A stretch of DNA of 24,000 bases from the NCBI GenBank assembly GCA_013297775.1, contig JAAFIL010000005.1, forward strand, positions 127,377 to 151,376, given 5' to 3'. This DNA comes from Bacteroidota bacterium. GTDB lineage: Bacteria > Bacteroidota > Bacteroidia > B-17B0 > Aurantibacillaceae. Each line of letters starts with the position of its first letter. Within the stretch, counting starts at the first letter, position 1. This document shows, in pieces, positions 5,151 through 16,018 of this stretch. The notes under the pieces are model-generated. The model was not told where the DNA came from. It ran no database searches and worked only from the letters and a program-made list of their open reading frames with translations. A program made the translations under genes and the position numbers.

Positions 5151-6170
5151 TCAAGTATAACCCTCTGAATACTTAGAAAGTGTATGTTTCATTCTGGATT
5201 GAATTTTTCTTGATAATCGTTTTGGACTTAGAACTTTCACTTGCTCTCCAAAGCCTAATATTTCACGCTCTAATTCAAAATTCCAAATAACCTCAATTGA
5301 AAAGATCGTCCCATCAGGATCTTCTCTTAATATTTTTTGCGAAGCATGTAACGGTTTTGTAATAATGTAAGGAGCGTGTTCTTTAATGATTTTCATCACA
5401 ATTAATTGTGGTGTTTGATTGGGCATTTTCGAAACACCAATAACATCATTAAAATAAGTGCTTACATCAAATTCTGCTTTGCGATATTTCTCAGAACTTA
5501 ATTCTTTGAATTGTTCAATTCTGTCTAGAGCTAAAATCATGGTGGCGTTTCCCTTTCTTTTGGCACCTAACACAAACCATCTATTGCGATACTCTTTCAA
5601 TAGATACGCATAAAACACGATTACCTGCGGCAACCGCGCTTTGAAAGATTGATAAGTAACTTCAATTGTTTTTTTGTTGATAATCGCCTTATGCAAAGGA
5701 TCAATATGTTTTAATCCTTTTAATAGTTCATTCTTTTCAAAATCAATGTATGATTTGCCTTTATGTTGTTGCTTGTAAAGCTTATCCTCTAGCCGAGTTA
5801 CCATACCATTTAACTCCTGAAAATAGCCAAAACCATTAAATTGTTTCAACACATGCAACACCTCGTTTAACGTTCCCAAATCTTGTTGAGTAATGGGCGA
5901 ATTAGTTATGCTATAATTTTTTTCTTCATAGCTGTAATACTTCTTATCTGTAACAACAATAGGCGCATTGTAACCCAGTTTTTCGCTGCGCATATTTTGT
6001 AAATCAAGTTGTATGGCTCGCTTACTAATCCCTTTTGTAATCCCTTCATATTCATATAACGCATCAGAACAGGCTTCCATTAAGTCTTCCAACGTCCATT
6101 TACGAAAACGATTTTGCAAACAATTGTCTATCGTTTTATATCTTACTAAGGCTAATTTATTAATTGGCAT
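5151..6170 (-). CDS. HTH + WYL-domain transcriptional regulator (YafY-like, 339 aa)
   Basis: It has an N-terminal wHTH-like region and a central WYL signature (YAYLLKEYRNRWFVLG). The C-terminal extension is typical of WYL regulators (VKVLSPKRLSRKI). It is divergent from rsr. Confidence 0.8.
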   Translation of the reverse strand: MPINKLALVRYKTIDNCLQNRFRKWTLEDLMEACSDALYEYEGITKGISKRAIQLDLQNMRSEKLGYNAPIVVTDKKYYSYEEKNYSITNSPITQQDLGTLNEVLHVLKQFNGFGYFQELNGMVTRLEDKLYKQQHKGKSYIDFEKNELLKGLKHIDPLHKAIINKKTIEVTYQSFKARLPQVIVFYAYLLKEYRNRWFVLGAKRKGNATMILALDRIEQFKELSSEKYRKAEFDVSTYFNDVIGVSKMPNQTPQLIVMKIIKEHAPYIITKPLHASQKILREDPDGTIFSIEVIWNFELEREILGFGEQVKVLSPKRLSRKIQSRMKHTLSKYSEGYT

Positions 6171-6516: not shown

Positions 6517-8034
6517 ATGAAATTCAATGTCTTTAAAAGAAAAGCAAATGTAGTAAACAACTACGAAGGCGCAAAAGCTTACCAGTTAACTCCTGAAATT
6601 GAATTATACGCTGCTGTAGTAACAGCTGGATTAAGCGATACTTTTTATGAGAAAAGTGATATACGTTTGGCTAGAATACAAACGTTGATGTTGAAGAATA
6701 ATCCTGAGTATGTTGCAAAATTAGCAGTGTATGCGCGTAATGAAATGTACATGAGAAGTATCCCTTTGGTATTAGCTGTCGAGTTGGCCAAATTAAACTC
6801 AGGTAATGTAATTGTAAGTAAAACAGTAAATGGCGTTGTGAAACGTGCAGATGAAATCACGGAACTATTAGCTTACTACCAATTAGCCAATAATAGAAAT
6901 GGCGTTAAAAAATTGAACAAGCTTTCTAAACAAATACAAAAAGGTTTGTCTGAAGCTTTCAATAAATTTGATGAGTATCAATTTGCTAAGTATAACCGTG
7001 CAACTGAAGTAAAATTGCGTGATGCTTTATTTATAGTTCACCCAAAAGCTAAACAAGAATCTCAACAAGAGATATTCAATAAAATAGCTACTAATGGATT
7101 AGCAGTGCCATATACTTGGGAAACTGAATTATCGGCTTTAGGGCAAGTGAAATACGAAAATGAAAAAGTAAAAGCCCATGCGGTTAAAGTAAAATGGAAA
7201 GAGTTGATAGATAGCGGTAAAATAGGCTATATGGCATTGATGAGAAACTTGCGTAACATTTTAGATGCAAATGTATCAGCAGCACATGTTAAAAAAGTGT
7301 GCAACTATTTATCCAATGAAATTGCTGTTGCTAATTCAAAACAATTACCTTTTCGATTCTTGGCCGCTTACCGAGAGATAAAAATTTTAAAATCTGAATA
7401 TGTTACCATGATTTTAAATGCTTTAGAAGATGCAGTAGTTGCAAGTGCAAAAAACCTGAAAGGGTTTGATGAGTCAACAAGAGTATTGATTGCTTGTGAT
7501 GTATCTGGGTCAATGCAAAAAGCAGTATCTGCAAAAAGTAAAGTGATGTTGTTTGACATAGGTTTGATGTTGGGTATGTTGATGCAATCGAAATGTAAAA
7601 GAGTAGTAACCGGAATGTTTGGTGATAACTGGAAAGTGATAAACATGCCAAACCGTGGAGTATTATCAAATGTTGATGAATACTACAAACGAGAAGGTGA
7701 AGTTGGTTACGCAACAAATGGTTATAAAGTGATTGATGATTTAATCAATCGTGGAGTAATGATGGATAAAATAATGTTGTTCACTGACTGCCAATTGTGG
7801 GATGGCAAATTTGGAGGTTCAAGCCTTGAGAAATCATGGATATCCTACAAGCAAATAGTTCCAAATGCAAAATTGTATTTGTTCGATTTGGCAGGTTATG
7901 GCAACACTCCATTAAGTATTCAAAAAGATGATGTCTGCTTAATCGCAGGATGGTCAGATAAAGTGTTTGACGTGTTACATGCTATCGAAAACGGTGAGAG
8001 TGCTATTGAAAAAATCAAACAAGTAATGTTGTAA
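6517..8034 (+). CDS. rsr: Rsr / Ro60-like TROVE-domain protein with C-terminal vWA (MIDAS) domain, 505 aa
   Basis: The N-terminus NYEGAKAYQLTPEIELYAAVVTAGLSDTFYEKSD...YARNEMYMRS is TROVE-like. The C-terminal vWA has the MIDAS motif DVSGSM. Size and domain order match Ro 60-kDa orthologues. Confidence 0.85.
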   Translation: MKFNVFKRKANVVNNYEGAKAYQLTPEIELYAAVVTAGLSDTFYEKSDIRLARIQTLMLKNNPEYVAKLAVYARNEMYMRSIPLVLAVELAKLNSGNVIVSKTVNGVVKRADEITELLAYYQLANNRNGVKKLNKLSKQIQKGLSEAFNKFDEYQFAKYNRATEVKLRDALFIVHPKAKQESQQEIFNKIATNGLAVPYTWETELSALGQVKYENEKVKAHAVKVKWKELIDSGKIGYMALMRNLRNILDANVSAAHVKKVCNYLSNEIAVANSKQLPFRFLAAYREIKILKSEYVTMILNALEDAVVASAKNLKGFDESTRVLIACDVSGSMQKAVSAKSKVMLFDIGLMLGMLMQSKCKRVVTGMFGDNWKVINMPNRGVLSNVDEYYKREGEVGYATNGYKVIDDLINRGVMMDKIMLFTDCQLWDGKFGGSSLEKSWISYKQIVPNAKLYLFDLAGYGNTPLSIQKDDVCLIAGWSDKVFDVLHAIENGESAIEKIKQVML

Positions 8035-8042
8035 TAGAAGCC

Positions 8043-8070
8043 CCCTCTCTGTTAATTTGAACAGAGAGGG
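8043..8070 (+). terminator. Strong hairpin after rsr with a weak U-tract (leaky terminator or processing site)
   Basis: CCCTCTCTGTT (8043-8053) / AACAGAGAGGG (8060-8070) form an 11-bp perfect stem with loop AATTTG. It is followed by TTATAAAAA rather than a T-run. Confidence 0.5.
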
Positions 8071-8108
8071 TTATAAAAATTAGTTCTTTAAAATATGGAT
8101 ATTGTCAA

Positions 8109-8203
8109 AATGCCGTAGAATCGGAATACATCGCTCGCAACAGGGGAAGGGTCTCAATGCAAATTGGGAAGAGGTGCAAATCCTCATGCGTATCCCCGTT
8201 CTG
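8109..8203 (+). ncRNA. Y-RNA-like unit 1 (divergent)
   Basis: The 5' box is AATGCCGTAGAATCGGAATACATCG. Box residues 8116-8129 can pair with 8190-8203 (TAGAA-T-CGG / CCGTTCTG and ATAC / GTAT). Inside are a 7-bp hairpin capped by GCAA (TCTCAAT-GCAA-ATTGGGA, 8152-8169) and a T-arm-like hairpin (GAGG-TGCAAAT-CCTC, 8171-8185). Alternative registers exist, so the fold is uncertain. Confidence 0.45.
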
Positions 8204-8283
8204 AATTTGCTTTTGCTTTTGGCAAAAAACTGAAATGCCATGCATTCCAGATAACCAATAGTTAATATTATAAAAACATGAAA

Positions 8284-8363
8284 GATGCCGTAAATTAGGG
8301 ATACATCGTGGCCAACGCAGGTTCGAATCCTGCTCCTAGAGAAATTTAGGATTTTCCCTTATT
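8284..8363 (+). ncRNA. Y-RNA-like unit 2 (short; T-arm plus one hairpin, no D-arm)
   Basis: The 5' box is GATGCCGTAAATTAGGGATACATCG. The closing helix AATTAGGGA (8293-8301) / TCCCTTATT (8355-8363) pairs at 8 of 9 positions. It has a canonical T-arm GCAGG-TTCGAAT-CCTGC (8317-8333), then the hairpin TCCTA-GAGAAATT-TAGGA (8334-8351). Confidence 0.5.
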
Positions 8364-8391
8364 GCTTTTAGCTCTTTCATAAAATATAAAC

Positions 8392-8503
8392 AGTGTCGTA
8401 AGTAAGAGATACTTCGTTTTAATTTATGTGTCGTTGGTTCGAGTCCAACTTTCATGCAAATGAAATAGCTCAGTGGGTAGAGCAATAAAAAAGACTCTTA
8501 CGG
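8392..8503 (+). ncRNA. Y-RNA-like unit 3: YrlA-style permuted tRNA-like domain on a long bulged helix
   Basis: The 5' box is AGTGTCGTAAGTAAGAGATACTTCG. GTAAGAG (8402-8408) pairs with CTCTTAC (8495-8501), and TTTAT (8423-8427) pairs with ATAAA (8485-8489). The variable region is GTGTC. The T-arm is GTTGG-TTCGAGT-CCAAC (8433-8449). The acceptor-like hairpin is TTTCAT-GCAA-ATGAAA (8450-8465), followed by TA and the D-arm GCTC-AGTGGGTA-GAGC (8468-8483), then A. Confidence 0.65.
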
Positions 8504-8530
8504 ATTTTTACCTGTTTTGAAACAGTGAAT

Positions 8531-8651
8531 GGTGTCGTAGAATAGAGATACTTCGACTTCGGATCGGGCGGACGTGGGTTCGAATCCCATCAAGGTAACA
8601 ACCACTTTAATTACCTTGTAGCTCAGTGGAAGAGCACCTTGTGCTTTATTC
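8531..8651 (+). ncRNA. Y-RNA-like unit 4: circularly permuted, complete tRNA-Arg(UCG)-like cloverleaf inside a closing helix
   Basis: The closing helix is GAATAGAG (8540-8547) / CTTTATTC (8644-8651). The anticodon arm is TTCGA-CTTCGGA-TCGGG (8552-8568), the variable region is CGGAC, and the T-arm is GTGGG-TTCGAAT-CCCAT (8574-8590). The acceptor 3' strand CAAGGTA + A (8591-8598) is joined by a 14-nt loop to the acceptor 5' strand TACCTTG (8612-8618). Then come TA, the D-arm GCTC-AGTGGAA-GAGC (8621-8635) and A26 (8636). Confidence 0.65.
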
Positions 8652-8672
8652 GTTTGTTGCCCATTCATATTT

Positions 8673-8746
8673 CGGTTTATAGCTCAGTTTGGTAGAGCAC
8701 CGTCCTTTTAAGACGGGAGTCCTTGGTTCAAATCCAAGTAGGCCGA
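8673..8746 (+). tRNA. tRNA-Lys (anticodon TTT), AT-rich atypical acceptor, no encoded CCA
   Basis: 74-nt cloverleaf. The acceptor is CGGTTTA/TAGGCCG (C1-G72, two G.U pairs). The D-arm is GCTC-AGTTTGGTA-GAGC, the anticodon arm is CCGTC-CTTTTAA-GACGG, the variable region is GAGTC, and the T-arm is CTTGG-TTCAAAT-CCAAG. The discriminator is A. Confidence 0.75.
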
Positions 8747-8750
8747 CAAA

Positions 8751-8823
8751 GGAAATGTAGTAAAGATGGTCAATGCAGCGGACTGAAAATCCGATGATGT
8801 AGGTTCGAATCCTACCATTTCCA
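8751..8823 (+). tRNA. tRNA-Phe (anticodon GAA)-like, non-canonical
   Basis: 73 nt. The acceptor is GGAAATG/CATTTCC. The D-arm GTAA-AGATGGTCA-ATGC has one mismatch. The anticodon arm GCGGA-CTGAAAA-TCCGA has a G/A mismatch at 27-43. The variable loop is 4 nt, and the T-arm is GTAGG-TTCGAAT-CCTAC. It starts 4 nt after tRNA-Lys. Confidence 0.6.
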
Positions 8824-8832
8824 CAAATACTT

Positions 8833-8905
8833 CGGGAAGTATTTCAATTGTTAGAATGCAGGCTTTGGGAGCTTGTGGTTGCAGGTTCGAGTCCTGCCTT
8901 CCCGA
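8833..8905 (+). tRNA. tRNA-Pro (anticodon TGG)-like, non-canonical D-loop
   Basis: 73 nt. The acceptor is CGGGAAG/CTTCCCG. The D-arm is TTTC-AATTGTTA-GAAT (3 bp, no GG in the loop). The anticodon arm is CAGGC-TTTGGGA-GCTTG, the variable region is TGGTT, and the T-arm is GCAGG-TTCGAGT-CCTGC. The discriminator is A. Confidence 0.55.
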
Positions 8906-8910
8906 CAAAA

Positions 8911-8963
8911 AGTGCCGTACAACATAGTTACTTCGTACTTTTAATATGTTAAATACTATGTTG
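8911..8963 (+). ncRNA. Y-RNA-like unit 5 (minimal: 5' box plus closing helix, no tRNA-like insert)
   Basis: The 5' box is AGTGCCGTACAACATAGTTACTTCG. CAACATAGT (8920-8928) pairs perfectly with ACTATGTTG (8955-8963) around a 26-nt AT-rich insert. Confidence 0.45.
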
Positions 8964-9012
8964 GTTATTTGCCTTTTTAACCGAAATTTTAAGAAATCGG
9001 ACACTTTATAAT

Positions 9013-9071
9013 AAAACATCTAATCCATTTTTAAGTTTTGATTCTAAGTGTTTTACAGAGTTAGATGTTTT
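9013..9071 (+). terminator. Terminator-like inverted repeat at the end of the RNA array
   Basis: AAAACATCTAA (9013-9023) / TTAGATGTTTT (9061-9071) is a perfect 11-bp repeat ending in TTTTATT, but the 37-nt loop is atypical. Confidence 0.3.
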
Positions 9072-9122
9072 ATTCTAAAGAATTTCTTTTTTGAAACTAC
9101 GATTTAACTATCTATTTACGAC

Positions 9123-9288
9123 TTATACCAATATCGGTTCTAAAAGATACAAGTTGAACCAGAATTATTTTTCTTTTAGGCGACGAAAAAATTACAGACG
9201 TAGCAAGGCCTACGGGTATAATTTTTGAGGAAGTATAAGAGAAAAAGAAACTGGGTCAACGTATCTTTTAGAAATGATGTTGGTATAA
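9123..9288. repeat. 166-bp long imperfect palindrome (extended hairpin / MITE-like) abutting the hrpB stop codon
   Basis: The left arm is TTATACCAATATCGGTTCTAAAAGATACAAGTTGAACCAG... The reverse complement of the right arm is TTATACCAACATCATTTCTAAAAGATACGTTGACCCAG... Inner pairs are AAAAATTA/TAATTTTT and CGTAG/CTACG around the central loop CAAGGC. Confidence 0.6.
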
Positions 9289-9290
9289 AC

Positions 9291-11774
9291 TTATTTTACA
9301 CTTTTACCTTTGGCTAAAGCCTTTGCCTGCCAAGGGTCTTCGGGCCAAGCATGTTTTGGATAACGCCTTTGCAATTCCTTTTTCACTTCGTGGTATAAAT
9401 TATTCCAAAAACTTTTTAAGTCGGTAGTTACTTGTACGGGTTTATATCCAGGCGATAATAAATGCAGCACCACAGGCATTTGATTGTTATTAACACGAGG
9501 TGTATCGGCCAAACCAAACACCTCTTGTAAACGAACCGCCATAAGGGGTGTAGCTCCATTCATAAAATAGGTGATGGGTAATTTAGAACCACTTGGCACA
9601 TTTAATTTTGAAGGTGCCAAGGCATTCAACTGTTGTTGTTGCTCCCAACTTAAACTATTTAAAAAACATACCTCTAAATTTAATTTCTTCAAATCATCGG
9701 GTTTTCTGCACGTTTCTAAATAAGGCCCTAGCCATTGTTGCGCTTGCACCAACAGGTAATCAGTGCTACTTTCTGGCCAATCTGCGTTGGTATTCCACAC
9801 ACGTAAACTCGCCACCCGTGCCTGCAGTTGCGCCATCGGTTCATCCCAATTTAATAAACTTAAACCTTCGTTAGCAATGGCTTTACAAATAGCTTCACCG
9901 ATCAAGTGCTTTGGAAATGTAGTTAATGGATTACGTTTCAATACCAAAGCACCTAACTTCCATTCAGTAAAGGCTTGCAAACCCCCTTTACGGGTGTCCC
10001 AATACAACGACTCTTCTTCACGCACCAAACTTTTCAAATCGCTGGGATCTAGTGCGGCTGCTAAGAAAATTTTTCCATCTCCCTCGCGCATATCCACATG
10101 CGCTACTGCTAACCAAGGCTCATGCGCTAAATTATCTTGATGTGCGAACAAGGCGTACTTACCATTAGCCAATTGAAACCGAGCGTTGTTACCAGGGCGT
10201 GCCGAGGCAATGCGCTCGGGGTAAGCAAACGCTAATGCCAAGCCCGCACTATGAGCGTCTATGGCGGTATTACTTTCTTTCAATCCCAATAAATTCAAAT
10301 AGTAATTTGCGTTAGCAGCAATGCGTTTCCACGCTCCTGTTAAACGATTTTGTTCACGAAGACGGCGCAATAACTCGATGCGTAAATTAATATCTATACC
10401 ACTATCGCGCGGCATAGGATCCCGCTCATCTAATATGGCCGCTACATCGCAAGCCAATTGTTTAAGCGTTATATCGTGGGCTTGTAACAGCATGTGTGCT
10501 ATGCGCGGGTGGCAGCCCAAACGGTGGATGTGTTTGCCATGTTCAGTTAATTTATTTGCTTTAATAGCTTCTAACTGTTCGAGTAGCTCGTTAGCCTGCG
10601 CAAGAGCGGCTTTGGGGGGTGGCGTTACCCAATTCAAATCGTAAACGTTGCTAACACCCCATTTGGTGGCTTCTAAAACAAGGCCACTTAAATCGGCTTC
10701 TATTATTTCGGGTACACGGTGTTCGGCCAGACGATTGTGTGTTGCAGTACTCCACAAACGGTAACACACGCCACTGCTTAAACGACCAGCACGTCCCATG
10801 CGTTGGTCGGCAGCATCTTTACTAATGCGCAAGGTTTCTAACTTCGATAAACCCGAACGTGTATCGAACCGTTGGCGTTTGGCAAAACCGCTATCAATCA
10901 CAATACGCACTCCTTCGATGGTTAAACTTGTTTCGGCAATAGAGGTTGCTAACACTACTTTGCGCAAGCCTTGTTTATTAGGCATTAGTGCCGCTTGTTG
11001 TTCACTTGAACTTAATAAGCCATACAGCGGATGTATGCGAATAGTTGATAATTCATTTTTTAATAATGCCTCGCAACGGCGAATGTCAGCTTCACCGGGT
11101 AAAAATGCCAATAAATCCCCTTCATGTTTAGCAAGTGCTTCTACAATGCACTGCGCCATTAATTCGGGCAATAACCGCTCGTCGGCATCGTTTCCATAAA
11201 ATAACTCAACAGGGTATTGCCGTCCTGTGCTTTCGATGAAGGGGGCGTTTAACAACGCTTGTAGCTCGGGCATATTGAGGGTGGCCGACATAATGAGTAG
11301 GCGTAAATCGGGACGTAAAACCTGTTGCGCCTCTCTGCACAAAGCCAAAGCCATATCGGCTTGTAAATTGCGTTCGTGAAACTCATCAAAAATAACCAAA
11401 GCCGTATCTTCTAAAGCATTATCGTGTTGCAATAAACGCGTTAAGATGCCTTCGGTTACTACCTCTAAGCGTGTGGCTTTACTAATGCGGGTTTCGAGGC
11501 GTATGCGGTACCCCACCGTTTCGCCAACGGGTTCGTTAAGTAATTGCGCCATGCGTTGCGCAATACTTTTAGCGGCTAATCGGCGAGGCTCTAATACGAT
11601 TATTTTTTTTCCTTGTAACCACGTCTCATCTAATAATGCCAATGGTAAAATAGTGCTTTTGCCCGCACCCGGCGGTGCTCCTAACAGAAGCGTATTTTGC
11701 GCATGTAACTGTTGCTTTAAATCAGCAATGCAATCGTTAACAGGAAAATTATATAAAAACGGATCGAATGTCAT
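9291..11774 (-). CDS. hrpB: ATP-dependent DEAH-box RNA helicase HrpB
   Basis: 827 aa with Walker A GAPPGAGKST, DEFHER (DEAH box), SAT, and the helicase C / HA2 / HrpB_C layout. It is colinear with my recollection of enterobacterial HrpB. Confidence 0.9.
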   Translation of the reverse strand: MTFDPFLYNFPVNDCIADLKQQLHAQNTLLLGAPPGAGKSTILPLALLDETWLQGKKIIVLEPRRLAAKSIAQRMAQLLNEPVGETVGYRIRLETRISKATRLEVVTEGILTRLLQHDNALEDTALVIFDEFHERNLQADMALALCREAQQVLRPDLRLLIMSATLNMPELQALLNAPFIESTGRQYPVELFYGNDADERLLPELMAQCIVEALAKHEGDLLAFLPGEADIRRCEALLKNELSTIRIHPLYGLLSSSEQQAALMPNKQGLRKVVLATSIAETSLTIEGVRIVIDSGFAKRQRFDTRSGLSKLETLRISKDAADQRMGRAGRLSSGVCYRLWSTATHNRLAEHRVPEIIEADLSGLVLEATKWGVSNVYDLNWVTPPPKAALAQANELLEQLEAIKANKLTEHGKHIHRLGCHPRIAHMLLQAHDITLKQLACDVAAILDERDPMPRDSGIDINLRIELLRRLREQNRLTGAWKRIAANANYYLNLLGLKESNTAIDAHSAGLALAFAYPERIASARPGNNARFQLANGKYALFAHQDNLAHEPWLAVAHVDMREGDGKIFLAAALDPSDLKSLVREEESLYWDTRKGGLQAFTEWKLGALVLKRNPLTTFPKHLIGEAICKAIANEGLSLLNWDEPMAQLQARVASLRVWNTNADWPESSTDYLLVQAQQWLGPYLETCRKPDDLKKLNLEVCFLNSLSWEQQQQLNALAPSKLNVPSGSKLPITYFMNGATPLMAVRLQEVFGLADTPRVNNNQMPVVLHLLSPGYKPVQVTTDLKSFWNNLYHEVKKELQRRYPKHAWPEDPWQAKALAKGKSVK

Positions 11775-14245: not shown

Positions 14246-16018
14246 GTGAATAAAGTATTTAAAGCAAATATTACTTATCAAGTTTCGGATTTCTTAAACG
14301 ATAATCTGAAAAAGATTACATCTTTTGAAAAGGCAAATCAAAAAATGCATGATGCTTTTGGTATCATATATTTTTTTGATAATGATGAAGAATTAGTAAT
14401 GCTTAAAGAGGTTCTTTCCATTGCCAATAATGTTGTTGAAGAACCTGATAGATCGGAATATGGCGACTTCCAAACTAATTCTGACTTAGCGAACAAAGTA
14501 ACTTTATACTTAGCGGAGAAAAAAATTTCACCCGAAGTTATAATTGAGCCAACTTGCGGGAAGGGAAATTTTATCATTGCTTCCTTACACAATTTTAAAA
14601 ACATTAAAAAGGTCTTTGGTGTTGAAATTTACAAACCTTACGTTTGGGAAACCAAATTCAGCATTGTTGATTTTTTCCTTTCTAATCCAAATTCAAATAA
14701 GCCAAAAATTTCAATAGTTCATTGCAATGTTTTCGACTTCGATTTTAAAGCAATAGCCAAGAAACATTCAACAAACAGTATTTTAGTCATCGGTAATCCA
14801 CCTTGGGTAACTAATTCAAAATTGGGTAGTTTAAATTCAACGAATCTTCCGAAAAAAACGAATTTCAAAAACCATAGCGGTTTAGATGCAATGACCGGCA
14901 AGGGTAATTTTGATATTGCTGAATTTATAACACTTACTATGATTGAAACCTTTCAAAATATGAAAGGGAATTTGTTGTTATTGGTGAAAAATTCTGTTAT
15001 CAAAAACATTGTCTTTGACCAAAATAAAAACCGATATAAGATTTCAGCTATTGAAAAACATTGCATTGACAGCAAAAAAGAGTTTAATGTTTCAGTTGAA
15101 GCAGCTTTGTTTTATTGTAAACTAAATTCACAACCTACATCGGATTGCTTAGAATTTGATTTTTACAATCGTCAAAAATCTCAACTTAAATTCGGCTGGT
15201 TGAACGACAAATTTGTTTCAAACATTGACACTTATATCCACTCAAAAGAAATTGACGGTGAATGTCCTTTTGTTTGGCGACAAGGTTTAAAGCACGATTG
15301 TTCTACCGTAATGGAATTAGACAAAGTGAACGGACATTATGTAAACGGACTGAATGAAGAAGTGAAATTGGAAGACGATTTAGTTTACGGTATTCTCAAA
15401 AGTTCCGACCTTAAAAACACTGTAATTAATCAAACACGAAAGTTTACAATTGTTACGCAAAAGAAAGTTGGGCAAGAAACAAAATATATTAAAACTGAAT
15501 ATCCTAAAACGTACCACTACCTCACACGACATCAAGTAAATTTCGATGCAAGAAAATCAAGTATCTACAACAACAAACCTTTGTTTTCAATATTTGGTAT
15601 TGGCGACTATTCTTTCAAACCTTTTAAAGTTGCCATATCAGGACTATACAAGACCTTTCATTTTACACTTATTTTGCCACAGAACAACAAGCCTGTAATG
15701 CTTGATGACACATGCTATTTGATAGGTTTTGATAAAATAGAATTTGCCGTTTACGCATTAATTCTTTTAAACTCTAACACGACAGTTCAGTTCTTACAAT
15801 CAGTTACTTTTACAGACGCTAAAAGGACTTTTACAAAAGACGTTTTAATGAGAATTGATCTCCTAGAATTAGCAAAACAAATTGACAAAACTGACCTGCA
15901 AACAGAACTTGAAACGCTTAACGAAAAGTATAAATTCAGTTTGACACTTGGCTTATGGGACAGTTTTATTAATGAGATGACACCTGTAAGCAATAGACAA
16001 ATAGCAATGTTTACATAG
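14246..16018 (+). CDS. N6-adenine DNA methyltransferase (gamma-class, Eco57I/TaqI-like, with C-terminal target-recognition domain)
   Basis: Motif I is IIEPTCGKGNFI and motif IV is VIGNPPWV (NPPW). There is a long C-terminal region. The predicted start is GTG, and an alternative ATG lies 33 codons in. Confidence 0.8.
   Translation: MNKVFKANITYQVSDFLNDNLKKITSFEKANQKMHDAFGIIYFFDNDEELVMLKEVLSIANNVVEEPDRSEYGDFQTNSDLANKVTLYLAEKKISPEVIIEPTCGKGNFIIASLHNFKNIKKVFGVEIYKPYVWETKFSIVDFFLSNPNSNKPKISIVHCNVFDFDFKAIAKKHSTNSILVIGNPPWVTNSKLGSLNSTNLPKKTNFKNHSGLDAMTGKGNFDIAEFITLTMIETFQNMKGNLLLLVKNSVIKNIVFDQNKNRYKISAIEKHCIDSKKEFNVSVEAALFYCKLNSQPTSDCLEFDFYNRQKSQLKFGWLNDKFVSNIDTYIHSKEIDGECPFVWRQGLKHDCSTVMELDKVNGHYVNGLNEEVKLEDDLVYGILKSSDLKNTVINQTRKFTIVTQKKVGQETKYIKTEYPKTYHYLTRHQVNFDARKSSIYNNKPLFSIFGIGDYSFKPFKVAISGLYKTFHFTLILPQNNKPVMLDDTCYLIGFDKIEFAVYALILLNSNTTVQFLQSVTFTDAKRTFTKDVLMRIDLLELAKQIDKTDLQTELETLNEKYKFSLTLGLWDSFINEMTPVSNRQIAMFT

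What the first reader, a model, noticed from the sequence alone, without database searches (positions are those of the whole stretch)
8531..8651. Complete tRNA-Arg(UCG)-like cloverleaf encoded in circularly permuted order (positions 27-73 first, then 1-26)
**Seen in the sequence**
Reading 5' to 3':
- anticodon arm TTCGA-CTTCGGA-TCGGG, with U33 and a purine at position 37 in place
- variable loop CGGAC ending in C48
- T-arm GTGGG-TTCGAAT-CCCAT
- acceptor 3' strand CAAGGTA plus discriminator A
- a 14-nt loop
- the perfectly complementary acceptor 5' strand TACCTTG
- U8 A9
- D-arm GCTC-AGTGGAA-GAGC, with A14, G15, G18G19 and A21
- A26

The nucleotides needed for L-shape tertiary contacts are all present. 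The chain is opened between positions 26 and 27 and the acceptor end is closed by a loop. The whole module sits inside an 8-bp closing helix (8540-8547 / 8644-8651).

**Comparison with known cases**
In described YrlA RNAs, as I recall, the Ro-binding stem replaces the anticodon arm. Here a full anticodon hairpin is retained as well. I know permuted tRNA genes from a red alga, not from bacteria.

**Inference**
This could be a decoy for an anticodon nuclease or a tRNA-binding effector. It could also be a substrate that becomes a tRNA only after cleavage and ligation.
Basis: partly seen in the sequence, partly recalled or inferred. Interest (0 to 1): 0.8.

Follow-up and report, generated by a model that had tools for sequence, protein, structure and literature searches.

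The report
Ro60-linked Y RNA with anticodon arm
This is a tRNA-shaped noncoding "Y RNA" encoded just downstream of a bacterial Ro60 (Rsr) gene, a known kind of RNA, but this Bacteroidota version also carries a full anticodon-like stem-loop, which published bacterial Y RNAs of this class are said to lack.

Summary
The re-joined sequence is called tRNA-Arg(UCG) by ARAGORN at thresholds as strict as those passed by genuine tRNAs in the window.

It is not a novel permuted tRNA gene. It is the fourth of five Y-RNA-like elements encoded downstream of a TROVE/Ro60 (Rsr) gene (6517-8034), on the same strand. The architecture is that of YrlA, which is already known and has already been compared in print with circularly permuted tRNAs.

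What does look new is the extra hairpin. In 66 distinct homologues from 56 Bacteroidota rsr loci:
- The two nucleotides after A26 pair with the two nucleotides before the variable loop (99% paired, 4-5 pair types).
- The hairpin supplies three further pairs and a 7-nt loop. U33 is present in 15 of 17 distinct loops of the strictly paired elements.
- Together these make a composite 5-bp anticodon stem.

The full RNA spans about 8526-8667, including an outer covarying helix. Function is inferred, not shown: an Rsr-bound tRNA mimic acting in RNA repair or decay. Verdict: a new variant of a known kind, of moderate interest.

The parts
6517..8034 (+). rsr: 505-aa TROVE/Ro60 orthologue, the presumed protein partner of the downstream RNAs
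   Evidence: Pfam TROVE E 2e-28 and a weak Ro60 vWA match. Near full-length match to solved TROVE proteins 9l5y/9kop, E 7e-29. 391 relatives found in genomes, the best 80 kept, nearly all titled as Bacteroidota.
8526..8667 (+). Full extent of the Y RNA-like element 'Y2', which contains the finding
   Evidence: Bounded by the covarying outer helix P0 (RNAalifold on 29 homologues). The 3' end lies 5 nt before tRNA-Lys.
8526..8535 (+). P0 5' strand: UGAAUGG, bulged U8533, then G8534 and U8535
   Evidence: Pairs with 8659-8667. Columns 3-12 pair with 137-145 of alignment A2, with many compensatory changes.
8534..8540 (+). Conserved GYCGUAG motif (here GUCGUAG). CGUA sits in an internal loop. Candidate Rsr contact site.
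   Evidence: Conserved in alignment A2: C13, G14 and U15 are invariant, column 16 is at least 90% A. Resembles the GNCGAAN0-1G motif of Chen et al. 2014 with one A-to-U difference. Binding is inferred, not shown.
8540..8547 (+).
   Evidence: Pairs with 8644-8651. Seven of its eight pairs are predicted by RNAalifold; all seven have at least one compensatory change, most strongly column 23:123 (AU 9, UA 7, GC 5, CG 4). U8543-A8648 is not predicted.
8548..8553 (+). Junction strand AUACUU, part of the conserved (R)UACUUCG box
   Evidence: Conserved in alignments A1 and A2. Role unknown.
8554..8566 (+). Anticodon-like hairpin: CGA (positions 29-31), loop CUUCGGA (32-38, 'anticodon' UCG), UCG (39-41)
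   Evidence: 81.8% of cells paired in 66 homologues, and all three pairs show double changes. In the 37 strictly paired elements (17 distinct loops), U33 is present in 15/17 and R37 in 13/17.
8567..8568 (+). G42, G43: pair with C28, C27 (8638, 8637)
   Evidence: 99.2% paired, 4-5 pair types (CG 38, UA 16, GC 8, AU 3; and GC 30, UA 18, CG 17).
8569..8573 (+). Variable loop CGGAC, with G46 and C48 (Levitt partner of G15)
   Evidence: Read from the sequence. A 5-nt length fits the common class.
8574..8590 (+). T arm GUGGG-UUCGAAU-CCCAU
   Evidence: 100% paired in 66 homologues, 4 of 5 pairs with double changes. Aligned to the T arm of Rfam YrlA.
8591..8618 (+). Closed acceptor-like hairpin: CAAGGUA / UACCUUG (7 bp) with a 14-nt loop. 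A8598-U8611 could form an eighth pair.
   Evidence: 92.6% paired over 7 positions, all 7 with double changes. The modal contiguous stem length is 7.
8619..8636 (+). U8, A9, D arm GCUC-AGUGGAA-GAGC, A26
   Evidence: D stem 100% paired. A14, G15, G18G19 and A21 are present.
8637..8638 (+). C27, C28: the 5' strand of the top of the anticodon stem, supplied by the 3' segment
8639..8643 (+). Junction strand UUGUG between the anticodon stem and P1
   Evidence: Variable in length and sequence among homologues.
8644..8651 (+). P1 3' strand CUUUAUUC
8652..8667 (+). 3' internal-loop strand GUUUGUU, then G8659 and C8660, then P0 3' strand CCAUUCA
8388..8517 (+). Y1: neighbouring canonical YrlA-like element (T arm, 6-bp acceptor-like hairpin, D arm; no extra hairpin)
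   Evidence: Rfam YrlA match to all 114 model positions, 42.6 bits, E 6.7e-8. In one search its five nucleotides after position 26 (AUAAA) pair with UUUAU before the variable loop.
8279..8379 (+). Y0: same bracket, with a T arm and a hairpin but no D arm
   Evidence: 5'-motif regex hit at 8285. Sequence read. Homologous copy in L001.
8102..8225 (+). YA: same bracket, with a different, T-loop-containing module
   Evidence: Regex hit at 8110. Sequence. Module conserved in L001-L008, L010 and L013.
8907..8978 (+). Ymin: the bracket helices with only a short loop
   Evidence: Regex hit at 8912. Sequence.
8673..8906 (+). Three tRNA genes (Lys-UUU, Phe-GAA, Pro-UGG) embedded in the array
   Evidence: ARAGORN and Rfam tRNA.
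5151..6170 (-). Divergent WYL/WCX-domain regulator
   Evidence: Pfam. The same arrangement occurs in L001, where RtcB follows the array.

Best explanation
The element (about 8526-8667, + strand) is a noncoding Y RNA of the YrlA type. It is one of five tandem Y-RNA-like elements, interspersed with three tRNA genes, encoded downstream of the Ro60 orthologue rsr in a Chitinophaga-like Bacteroidota genome.

**Two modules**
- **Protein-binding bracket.** Helix P0, an internal loop carrying the conserved GYCGUAG motif, and helix P1. By analogy with other Y RNAs, this bracket binds the Rsr ring. This step is inferred.
- **tRNA mimic.** T arm, D arm, a 7-bp acceptor-like stem closed by a loop, a 5-nt variable loop, and all the nucleotides needed for the L-shape.

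**What is unusual.** The anticodon stem does not simply continue into the bracket. After two base pairs (C27-G43, C28-G42), made with the 3' segment, the bracket branches off. A local hairpin supplies pairs 29-31:39-41 and a 7-nt loop with U33 and G37. If the two parts stack, they form a full 5-bp anticodon arm.

**Most likely mode of action (inferred).** Rsr-bound, the RNA presents a near-complete tRNA shape to tRNA-recognising proteins. It would act as a tether, gate or competitive decoy within an RNA repair or decay pathway. In close relatives the array is followed by the RtcB ligase and preceded by a WYL regulator.

**Shown here:** anatomy, conservation, covariation and genomic linkage. 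**Not shown here:** expression, Rsr binding and function.
For: **Linkage to Rsr**
- The adjacent same-strand ORF is a TROVE/Ro60 protein.
- Rfam YrlA hits to this element and its neighbour.
- In 80 Bacteroidota rsr loci, the conserved 5' bracket motif occurs up to 9 times per locus (3-9 in most), almost exclusively downstream of rsr on the same strand.

**Structure**
- P0 and P1 covary strongly.
- On 66 distinct homologues the proposed structure is 94.9% paired, against 74.5% in shuffles and 37-50% when partners are slid.
- Per helix: 27:43/28:42 is 99.2% paired, the hairpin 81.8%, the T stem 100%, the acceptor stem 92.6%, the D stem 100%.
- 42 of 96 elements with T and D arms fit exactly 5 bp plus a 7-nt loop plus a 5-nt variable loop.
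- 36 of 81 loci have at least one strictly paired example.
- Among the 17 distinct loops of the strictly paired elements, U33 is present in 15. G37 accompanies G36 (Fisher p = 0.001).

**tRNA-likeness**
- The composite re-permutation (8612-8638 + 8554-8598) is called tRNA-Arg(UCG) by ARAGORN up to 122% of the default threshold. That equals the best real tRNAs in the window.

**Context and literature**
- WYL regulator, rsr, the array, then RtcB in L001 and L004.
- YrlA architecture, tRNA-enzyme recognition and Rsr linkage: PMC4201824 and bioRxiv 10.1101/312249.
Against: - There are no expression, RNA-end or Rsr-binding data.
- Rfam YrlA scores (31.4 and 42.6 bits) are below the gathering score of 69.
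- The putative Rsr motif is GYCGUAG, not the published GNCGAAN0-1G.
The region's z-score is 0.02.
- The 'anticodon' triplet is not conserved. UCG, UGG, GUU, UUU, CAU, GUC, UUC and others all occur.
- The abundant CAU-type loops have a pyrimidine at position 37.
- Only 37 of the 66 distinct class members have every pair of the composite stem formed. In the others the hairpin is imperfect or has another loop size.
- The window itself lacks rtcB.
Confidence: 0.75

Rival explanations
1. It is a YrlA-type Y RNA, but the extra hairpin is only a structural spacer or a relic. It would be a small stabilising stem at the three-way junction, or a leftover of the tRNA from which the RNA evolved. It would not be read by anything as an anticodon arm.
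For: - The triplet is not conserved.
- Loop sizes of 3, 5 and 9 nt occur in related elements.
- CAU-type loops lack R37.
- The hairpin's 5' strand is largely dictated by the conserved UACUUCG box.
- Many published YrlAs are predicted to have a poorly conserved extra stem-loop ('V') upstream of the T arm.
- The published dimeric-tRNA origin model predicts such leftovers.
Against: - The total stem length (5 bp) and loop length (7 nt) are kept while the break point shifts between 28|29 and 29|30.
- U33 is nearly invariant, and G37 tracks G36 as in real tRNAs.
- The hairpin sits directly 5' of positions 42-43 with no spacer. That is the anticodon-stem position, not the variable-arm position.
Confidence: 0.2
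2. It is a sacrificial substrate or sensor for anticodon-loop nucleases. Cleavage in the 7-nt loop would release fragments that signal to the WYL regulator, or would be resealed by RtcB.
For: - A real anticodon-type loop is present.
- RtcB and a WYL regulator flank the array in relatives.
- In Salmonella the analogous operon is induced by cleaved tRNAs, and YrlA was proposed as a nuclease inhibitor (PMC7790460).
- Loop identities differ between lineages, as expected in an arms race.
Against: - The case is entirely inferential.
- Salmonella YrlA is not cleaved.
- The window's locus has no rtcB.
- No nuclease gene is identified in the window.
Confidence: 0.1
3. It is a circularly permuted pre-tRNA that is matured into a functional tRNA-Arg. 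The bracket would be excised and the ends ligated (for example by RtcB), and the acceptor loop opened by RNase P and RNase Z.
For: - The re-permuted sequence scores like a real tRNA.
- It has a 7-bp acceptor stem with a purine at the discriminator position.
- M. smegmatis YrlA is cut by RNase P and receives CCA.
- Wang et al. raise this possibility for YrlA.
Against: - The ends are embedded in a long, conserved, covarying bracket shared with elements that have no tRNA body (YA, Ymin). They do not form a bulge-helix-bulge.
- According to the literature, no bacterial splicing endonuclease has been reported.
- The break point would require removal of a branch from inside the anticodon stem.
- 'Anticodons' include UCA and UAU, and loops with Y37.
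- Some relatives carry insertions of more than 100 nt in the acceptor loop.
Confidence: 0.03
4. It is a decayed remnant of two tandem tRNA genes (the T arm of the first, the D arm of the second) with no function. Chen et al. warned about this type of false positive.
For: - It lies next to tRNA genes.
- The dimeric-tRNA artefact is noted in PMC4201824.
Against: - No upstream acceptor or D arm and no downstream anticodon or T arm exist.
- The element is bracketed by P0/P1 and the conserved motif, like its four neighbours.
- It is conserved, with compensatory changes, across several Bacteroidota lineages (Chitinophaga-like, Flavobacterium, Chryseobacterium, Cytophagales-type, Saprospiraceae, Sphingobacterium).
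Confidence: 0.02

Closest known systems
YrlA RNAs (Rfam RF02553; S. Typhimurium, M. smegmatis and others; Chen et al. 2014, Wang et al. 2018)
   Same: - Encoded just downstream of rsr on the same strand.
- T arm lies 5' of the D arm, with a closed acceptor-like hairpin between them.
- Same tertiary-contact nucleotides.
- The stem at the anticodon-stem position is closed by the 5' and 3' segments that lead to the Rsr-binding module.
- Multiple copies per locus, and adjacency to tRNA genes and to RtcB, have been reported.
   Different: - Published YrlA 'lacks the anticodon loop'. Here a hairpin completes a 5-bp anticodon stem with a 7-nt U33 loop, and the Rsr bracket becomes a side branch.
- The motif is GYCGUAG rather than GNCGAAN0-1G.
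- The bracket is a long two-helix structure (P0 and P1) in which both strands are recognisable.
- Scores fall below Rfam's gathering threshold.
D. radiodurans Yrn1
   Same: An Rsr-bound Y RNA that can be drawn with a potential 'anticodon arm' having a 5-bp stem (Chen et al. 2014).
   Different: - In Yrn1 the loop is 6 nt and the D arm is doubtful.
- The order of the arms relative to the ends differs.
- Here the loop is 7 nt and the D arm is canonical.
Circularly permuted tRNA genes (Cyanidioschyzon merolae and other algae, one archaeon)
   Same: - The 3' part of the tRNA is encoded before the 5' part.
- The acceptor end is initially closed by a loop.
- The re-joined sequence is a good tRNA.
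   Different: - Those precursors use a bulge-helix-bulge and the splicing endonuclease, and they become working tRNAs.
- Here the termini form a conserved protein-binding bracket shared with non-tRNA-like elements.
- No maturation pathway is known in bacteria.
b7a-tRNA (Burroughs and Aravind 2016, as summarised)
   Same: A tRNA-looking RNA encoded beside RtcB, and sometimes beside Rsr. It may be relevant to the unusual tRNA genes embedded in this array.
   Different: It is described as resembling an authentic, non-permuted tRNA. It could not be tested here because the paper is not held in the library.
tmRNA tRNA-like domain and the TYMV tRNA-like structure
   Same: L-shaped tRNA mimics embedded in larger RNAs.
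   Different: - They have free CCA ends and are aminoacylated.
- There is no Rfam match here beyond chance.

Membership tests
YrlA-type bacterial Y RNA | Encoded within 4 kb of a TROVE/Ro60 gene, on the same strand | tested here: met
   rsr is at 6517-8034 (+). The element starts 492 nt downstream.
YrlA-type bacterial Y RNA | T stem-loop 5' of the D stem-loop, with an acceptor-like hairpin between them | tested here: met
   Paired in homologues: T 100%, acceptor 92.6%, D 100%.
YrlA-type bacterial Y RNA | tRNA tertiary-contact nucleotides conserved (U8, A14, G15:C48, G18G19, U54:A58, C56) | tested here: met
   All are present in the window sequence. U8 and A9 are invariant, the D stem is nearly invariant, and most T-loop positions are invariant in alignment A3. 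The D loop and C48 were not scored across homologues.
YrlA-type bacterial Y RNA | Anticodon-stem equivalent formed by pairing of the 5' and 3' segments that lead to the Rsr-binding module | tested here: met
   Pairs 27:43 and 28:42 are 99.2% paired, with 4-5 pair types. Only 2-3 bp form before the bracket branches off.
YrlA-type bacterial Y RNA | GNCGAAN0-1G motif near the 5' end | tested here: inconclusive
   The conserved motif here is GYCGUAG, with one A-to-U difference. Equivalence is not proven.
YrlA-type bacterial Y RNA | No anticodon loop (as described for the solved structure) | tested here: not met
   A conserved hairpin with a 7-nt loop is present. This is the variant feature.
YrlA-type bacterial Y RNA | Rfam RF02553 gathering score (69 bits) | tested here: not met
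   31.4 bits (local) for this element and 42.6 bits for Y1.
YrlA-type bacterial Y RNA | Binds Rsr; modified by TruB and Dus enzymes | not testable with these tools
   Needs immunoprecipitation and modification mapping.
Canonical tRNA gene | Contiguous cloverleaf detected by tRNA finders, with free acceptor ends | tested here: not met
   Neither ARAGORN nor the Rfam tRNA model calls 8526-8667. The acceptor end is closed by a loop.
Circularly permuted tRNA gene | The re-joined halves score as a tRNA | tested here: met
Circularly permuted tRNA gene | Termini form a bulge-helix-bulge processed by a splicing endonuclease | tested here: not met
   By inspection, the termini form P0, an internal loop and P1 (7+2 and 8 bp), joined to the body through AUACUU and UUGUG. 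No 3-4-3 bulge-helix-bulge is present.
Circularly permuted tRNA gene | A mature, ligated, functional tRNA is produced | not testable with these tools
   Needs tRNA-seq or circular RT-PCR.

The most novel reading that the evidence does not exclude
Bacteroidota Rsr loci encode families of Ro60-tethered, essentially complete tRNA mimics whose anticodon-type loops copy those of particular tRNAs (Arg, Pro, Asn, Lys, Asp, Glu, Met-like and others).

These could act as anticodon-specific decoys or sacrificial sensors for tRNA-targeting toxins. Cleavage or repair would be coupled to RtcB and to the WYL regulator.

Probability: 0.12. Interest if true: 0.8.

Novelty: new variant of a known kind. Interest (0 to 1): 0.5.

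Why it matters
The function of the tRNA-like domain of bacterial Y RNAs is still unknown. Published ideas include nuclease protection, tethering of a tRNA-binding effector, and inhibition of an anticodon nuclease.

A widespread Bacteroidota subclass that restores a full anticodon arm, with loops that look like those of specific tRNAs, narrows the candidate partners. It points to proteins that read the anticodon loop: ribotoxins, position 34/37 modification enzymes, and synthetases. The decoy hypothesis then becomes directly testable in cultivable Flavobacterium and Chryseobacterium strains.

The variant also bears on the proposed origin of YrlA from dimeric tRNA transcripts, because it looks like an intermediate that kept the first tRNA's anticodon arm.

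Finally, the loci show that a single Rsr gene can be followed by up to 9 Y-RNA-like elements with different effector modules. Current Rfam thresholds annotate none of the window's five elements.

Tried and rejected
- **Direct tRNA, tmRNA or permuted tmRNA.** Rfam and ARAGORN give no call on 8526-8667. The tmRNA-type matches that touch the element or its flanks score only 12-15 bits (gathering 47), which I read as T-arm similarity.
- **Thermodynamic support.** Energy z-scores are 0.02 for Y2 and -1.08 for Y1. The MFE breaks the T arm. Energy therefore cannot decide, and I relied on covariation instead.
- **The cUUCGg tetraloop reading of 8557-8562.** Rejected because the loop sequence varies freely in homologues while its 7-nt length is kept.
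- **The hairpin as the published 'V' (variable) arm.** Rejected because it lies 5' of positions 42-43, and a normal 5-nt variable loop follows.
- **Full anticodon stem made only from the 3' segment (canonical YrlA).** Positions 29:41 and 31:39 pair in only 24/66 and 22/66.
- **MAFFT and RNAalifold on full-length sequences.** These recover P0, P1, T, acceptor and D but miss the short helices. MAFFT aligns the UACUUCG box rather than the loop. A gap-free alignment anchored on the T and D arms was used instead.
- **Literature.** I searched for a prior description of Bacteroidota Y RNA arrays or of anticodon-arm YrlA variants and found none in the held library. The Annual Review (2020), Burroughs and Aravind (2016), and the supplements of Chen et al. 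2014 are not held. Prior listing of these loci therefore cannot be excluded.
- **Viral origin.** Ro60 relatives occur in viral contigs, often within tRNA arrays. Only one of them (L081) has the Bacteroidota bracket motif in an array.
Full report
**1. The observation**

- hairpin UUCGA/CUUCGGA/UCGGG (8552-8568)
- variable loop CGGAC (8569-8573)
- T arm (8574-8590)
- CAAGGUA plus A (8591-8598) and a 14-nt loop
- UACCUUG (8612-8618), then U8 and A9
- D arm GCUC-AGUGGAA-GAGC (8621-8635), then A26 (8636)
- an 8-bp closing helix, 8540-8547 with 8644-8651

The tRNA tertiary-contact nucleotides are all present: U8, A14, G15:C48, G18G19, G46, U54:A58 and C56.

Standard finders do not call a tRNA here. 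It keeps that call up to 118% of the default threshold. The window's genuine tRNAs drop out between 112% and 124%. None of 1000 whole-sequence shuffles is called.

A control shows that the default call says little about the anticodon arm itself. With a shuffled or random 17-mer in its place, 77% and 55% of constructs are still called. Only at the 116% threshold does this fall to 2% and 0.5%.

**2. What it is**

*Neighbouring gene.* The 505-aa ORF immediately upstream on the same strand (6517-8034) is a TROVE/Ro60 protein. Pfam gives TROVE at E 2e-28 and a weak Ro60-vWA match. It also matches solved TROVE proteins over nearly its full length.

*Rfam.* With relaxed thresholds on 8100-9100, the YrlA (Y RNA-like) model matches 8402-8504 across all 114 model positions (42.6 bits, E 6.7e-8). 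It matches the T-acceptor-D core of the finding at 8567-8638 (31.4 bits, E 1.2e-4). Both are below the family's gathering score of 69.

*The array.* The finding is one member of a tandem array. A conserved bracket recurs five times in the window: a 5' part GUGYCGUAG-N6-8-(R)UACUUCG and a 3' part YUUUUCGYUUNUUGCC. The array, in order:

| Element | Coordinates |
|---|---|
| YA | 8102-8225 |
| Y0 | 8279-8379 |
| Y1 | 8388-8517 |
| Y2 (the finding) | 8526-8667 |
| tRNA-Lys, tRNA-Phe, tRNA-Pro | 8673-8906 |
| Ymin | 8907-8978 |

*Homologous loci.* I fetched 80 loci encoding relatives of the Rsr protein. Nearly all are titled as Bacteroidota, and the closest is an uncultured Chitinophaga at 93% identity. 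In them the 5' bracket motif occurs up to 9 times per locus (3-9 in most), almost exclusively just downstream of rsr.

*Flanking genes.* In L001 a divergent WYL/WCX regulator lies upstream and the RtcB RNA ligase follows the array; in L004 RtcB likewise follows it. The window has the WYL regulator (5151-6170, minus strand) but no rtcB.

**3. Architecture from comparative analysis**

*Bracket helices.* RNAalifold on 29 full-length homologues predicts two helices with many compensatory changes:
- **P0**, an outer helix. In the window this is U8526-A8667 through G8532-C8661, a bulged U8533, then G8534-C8660 and U8535-G8659.

The conserved CGUA sits in the internal loop between them.

*The tRNA-like body.* I collected 96 elements that have both T and D arms. 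I then built a gap-free alignment of the 66 distinct ones whose spacer before the T arm is 18-20 nt, anchoring positions on the T and D arms.

On this alignment the structure is 94.9% paired, against 74.5% in shuffles and 37-50% when partners are slid by 1-3 columns. Per helix:

| Helix | Cells paired | Note |
|---|---|---|
| T stem | 100% | |
| D stem | 100% | |
| 7-bp acceptor-like stem | 92.6% | all seven pairs covary |
| 27:43 and 28:42 | 99.2% | 4-5 pair types each |
| Hairpin 29-31:39-41 | 81.8% | double changes at all three pairs |

The decisive point concerns positions 43 and 42, the two nucleotides before the variable loop. They pair with the two nucleotides that follow A26 in the 3' segment.

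A stem made wholly from the 3' segment, as in canonical YrlA and in Y1, fails at 29:41 and 31:39 (24/66 and 22/66).

*Resulting model.* The conserved design is a composite anticodon arm:
- 2 bp (sometimes 3) are closed by the 3' segment.
- The Rsr bracket then branches off.
- A local hairpin contributes the remaining 3 (or 2) bp and a 7-nt loop.

Exactly 5 bp plus a 7-nt loop plus a 5-nt variable loop is by far the commonest solution, at 42 of 96 elements. At least one strictly paired example occurs in 36 of 81 loci. These span Chitinophaga-like, Flavobacterium, Chryseobacterium, Cytophagales-type, Saprospiraceae and Sphingobacterium genomes.

*In the window.* The pairs are C8637-G8568, C8638-G8567, C8554-G8566, G8555-C8565 and A8556-U8564, with loop 8557-8563.

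Re-permuting the sequence according to this model (8612-8638 + 8554-8598) raises the ARAGORN ceiling to 122%. That is level with the best real tRNAs in the window.

The structural claim therefore rests on covariation.

**4. The loop**

The 37 strictly paired elements carry 17 distinct 7-nt loops:
- Position 33 is U in 15.
- Position 32 is a pyrimidine in 14.
- Position 37 is a purine in 13.
- G37 accompanies G36 in 5 of 6 cases and never otherwise (Fisher p = 0.001).

From general knowledge of tRNA, G37 following G36 is the tRNA pattern associated with m1G37.

Two loops are identical to anticodon loops of real tRNAs in this window: CUGUUAA (tRNA-Asn) and CUUUUAA (tRNA-Lys). From my own recollection, CUGUCAC and CUUUCAC match the E. 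coli Asp and Glu loops.

The triplet itself is not conserved. The abundant Chryseobacterium CUCAUYA loops have a pyrimidine at position 37. So the loop is anticodon-like in form, but it is not a single conserved 'codon reader'.

**5. Comparison with what is known**

- **Chen et al. 2014 (PMC4201824)** defined YrlA RNAs. They are encoded next to rsr and have T, acceptor-like and D stem-loops, sometimes with a poorly conserved 'V' stem-loop. They carry a GNCGAAN0-1G motif. The authors reported 355 candidates in 254 bacteria and 22 phages, sometimes several per locus. M. smegmatis YrlA, which has a 7-bp acceptor stem, is cut by RNase P and receives CCA.
- **Wang et al. 2018 (bioRxiv 10.1101/312249)** solved the tRNA-like module. 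They state that YrlA 'lacks the anticodon loop'. They explicitly liken YrlA to circularly permuted tRNAs, discuss an origin from dimeric tRNA transcripts, and note adjacency to tRNA genes and RtcB.
- **Hughes et al. 2020 (PMC7790460)** suggest YrlA may competitively inhibit an anticodon nuclease.

The permuted-cloverleaf topology, the Rsr linkage and the decoy idea are therefore all known. The composite anticodon arm with a 7-nt U33 loop is not described in the sources I could read. D. radiodurans Yrn1 has only a possible arm with a 6-nt loop, in a different orientation.

I could not read the supplements of Chen et al., the 2020 Annual Review, or Burroughs and Aravind 2016. Prior listing of these loci therefore cannot be excluded.

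**6. Mechanism**

*Shown:* anatomy, covariation, and linkage to rsr (and to a WYL regulator and RtcB in relatives).

*Inferred:* the bracket binds Rsr, and the tRNA-like body is recognised by tRNA-binding proteins. The added anticodon arm extends that mimicry to factors that read the anticodon loop. The most likely role is as a tether, gate or decoy in RNA repair or decay.

*Rivals:*
- The hairpin is a structural relic with no anticodon-mimic role.
- The RNA is a cleavable sensor or substrate for anticodon nucleases.
- It is a true permuted pre-tRNA.
- It is a decayed pair of tandem tRNA genes.

Each is weighed in the rival-explanations section. The last two are disfavoured by the conserved bracket shared with non-tRNA-like elements, by the absence of a bulge-helix-bulge, and by the covariation.

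**7. Verdict**

The element is a new variant of a known kind (YrlA-type Y RNA) and is of moderate interest.

Noticed in passing
window 8102-8225: The first element of the array (YA) has the same Rsr-type bracket. Its effector module is GGGGAAGGGUC...GAGGUGCAAAUCCUC, which contains a T-loop-like hairpin and superficially recalls a cobalamin-riboswitch core. It has no Rfam match at E<=10. It is conserved in L001-L008, L010 and L013.
   Followed up: partly
window 8279-8379 and 8907-8978: Two further bracketed elements. Y0 has a T arm plus a 5-bp hairpin but no D arm. Ymin has only the two bracket helices and a short A/U-rich loop, and it abuts the 3' end of tRNA-Pro. One Rsr gene therefore appears to be served by Y-like RNAs with very different effector modules.
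   Followed up: partly
window 8673-8906; L009 5699-5772; L007 about 5872-5985: The tRNA genes embedded in the array are unusual. The array tRNA genes have 42-51% G+C, against 57% for tRNA-Val and tRNA-Asn elsewhere in the window. tRNA-Phe has acceptor stem GGAAAUG and D stem GUAA/AUGC. tRNA-Pro lacks G18G19. tRNA-Lys has C1-G72. The same odd tRNA-Pro recurs in a locus with only 70% Rsr identity. L007 has a tRNA-Phe-like sequence with an insertion of about 60 nt after CUGAAA. These may be related to the 'b7a-tRNA' idea rather than being housekeeping tRNAs.
   Followed up: no
L002, L003; viral contigs L083, L085, L089, L090: rsr is flanked by large tRNA arrays in some genomes (17 and 10 tRNA genes within about 9 kb). 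Ro60-like genes in IMG/VR viral contigs also sit inside tRNA arrays.
   Followed up: partly
L012 about 5924-6160; L013 6141-6390: Homologues of the finding carry insertions of more than 100 nt, themselves hairpin-rich, in the loop that closes the acceptor stem. ARAGORN calls the 5' part of the L012 element a tRNA-Asn(gtt) (5923-5991).
   Followed up: no
window 8084-8095 and the equivalent position in L001, L003, L006, L007, L011-L013: A conserved box GTTCTTTRAAAA lies about 5-35 nt upstream of the first Y element. It could be a promoter or a processing signal. The sigma-70-type scan found no plus-strand promoter in 7900-9400.
   Followed up: no
window 8043-8070: An 11-bp G+C-rich inverted repeat (CCCUCUCUG...CAGAGAGGG) lies right after the rsr stop codon and is conserved in position in L001. 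It is terminator-like but lacks a good U tract on the plus strand. It bears on whether the Y array is co-transcribed with rsr.
   Followed up: no
window 8552-8556 and 8637-8641: In this sequence UCGGG (8564-8568) can pair either with the upstream UUCGA or with the downstream CCUUG. Two alternative 5' strands for one 3' strand is what the dimeric-tRNA origin model would leave behind. It could also allow conformational switching.
   Followed up: partly
window 9291-11774 (-), 14246-16018 (+): An HrpB-type DEAH RNA helicase is encoded convergently just after the array, where relatives have RtcB. Further downstream is a 590-aa ORF with a weak MmeI-methyltransferase match.
   Followed up: no
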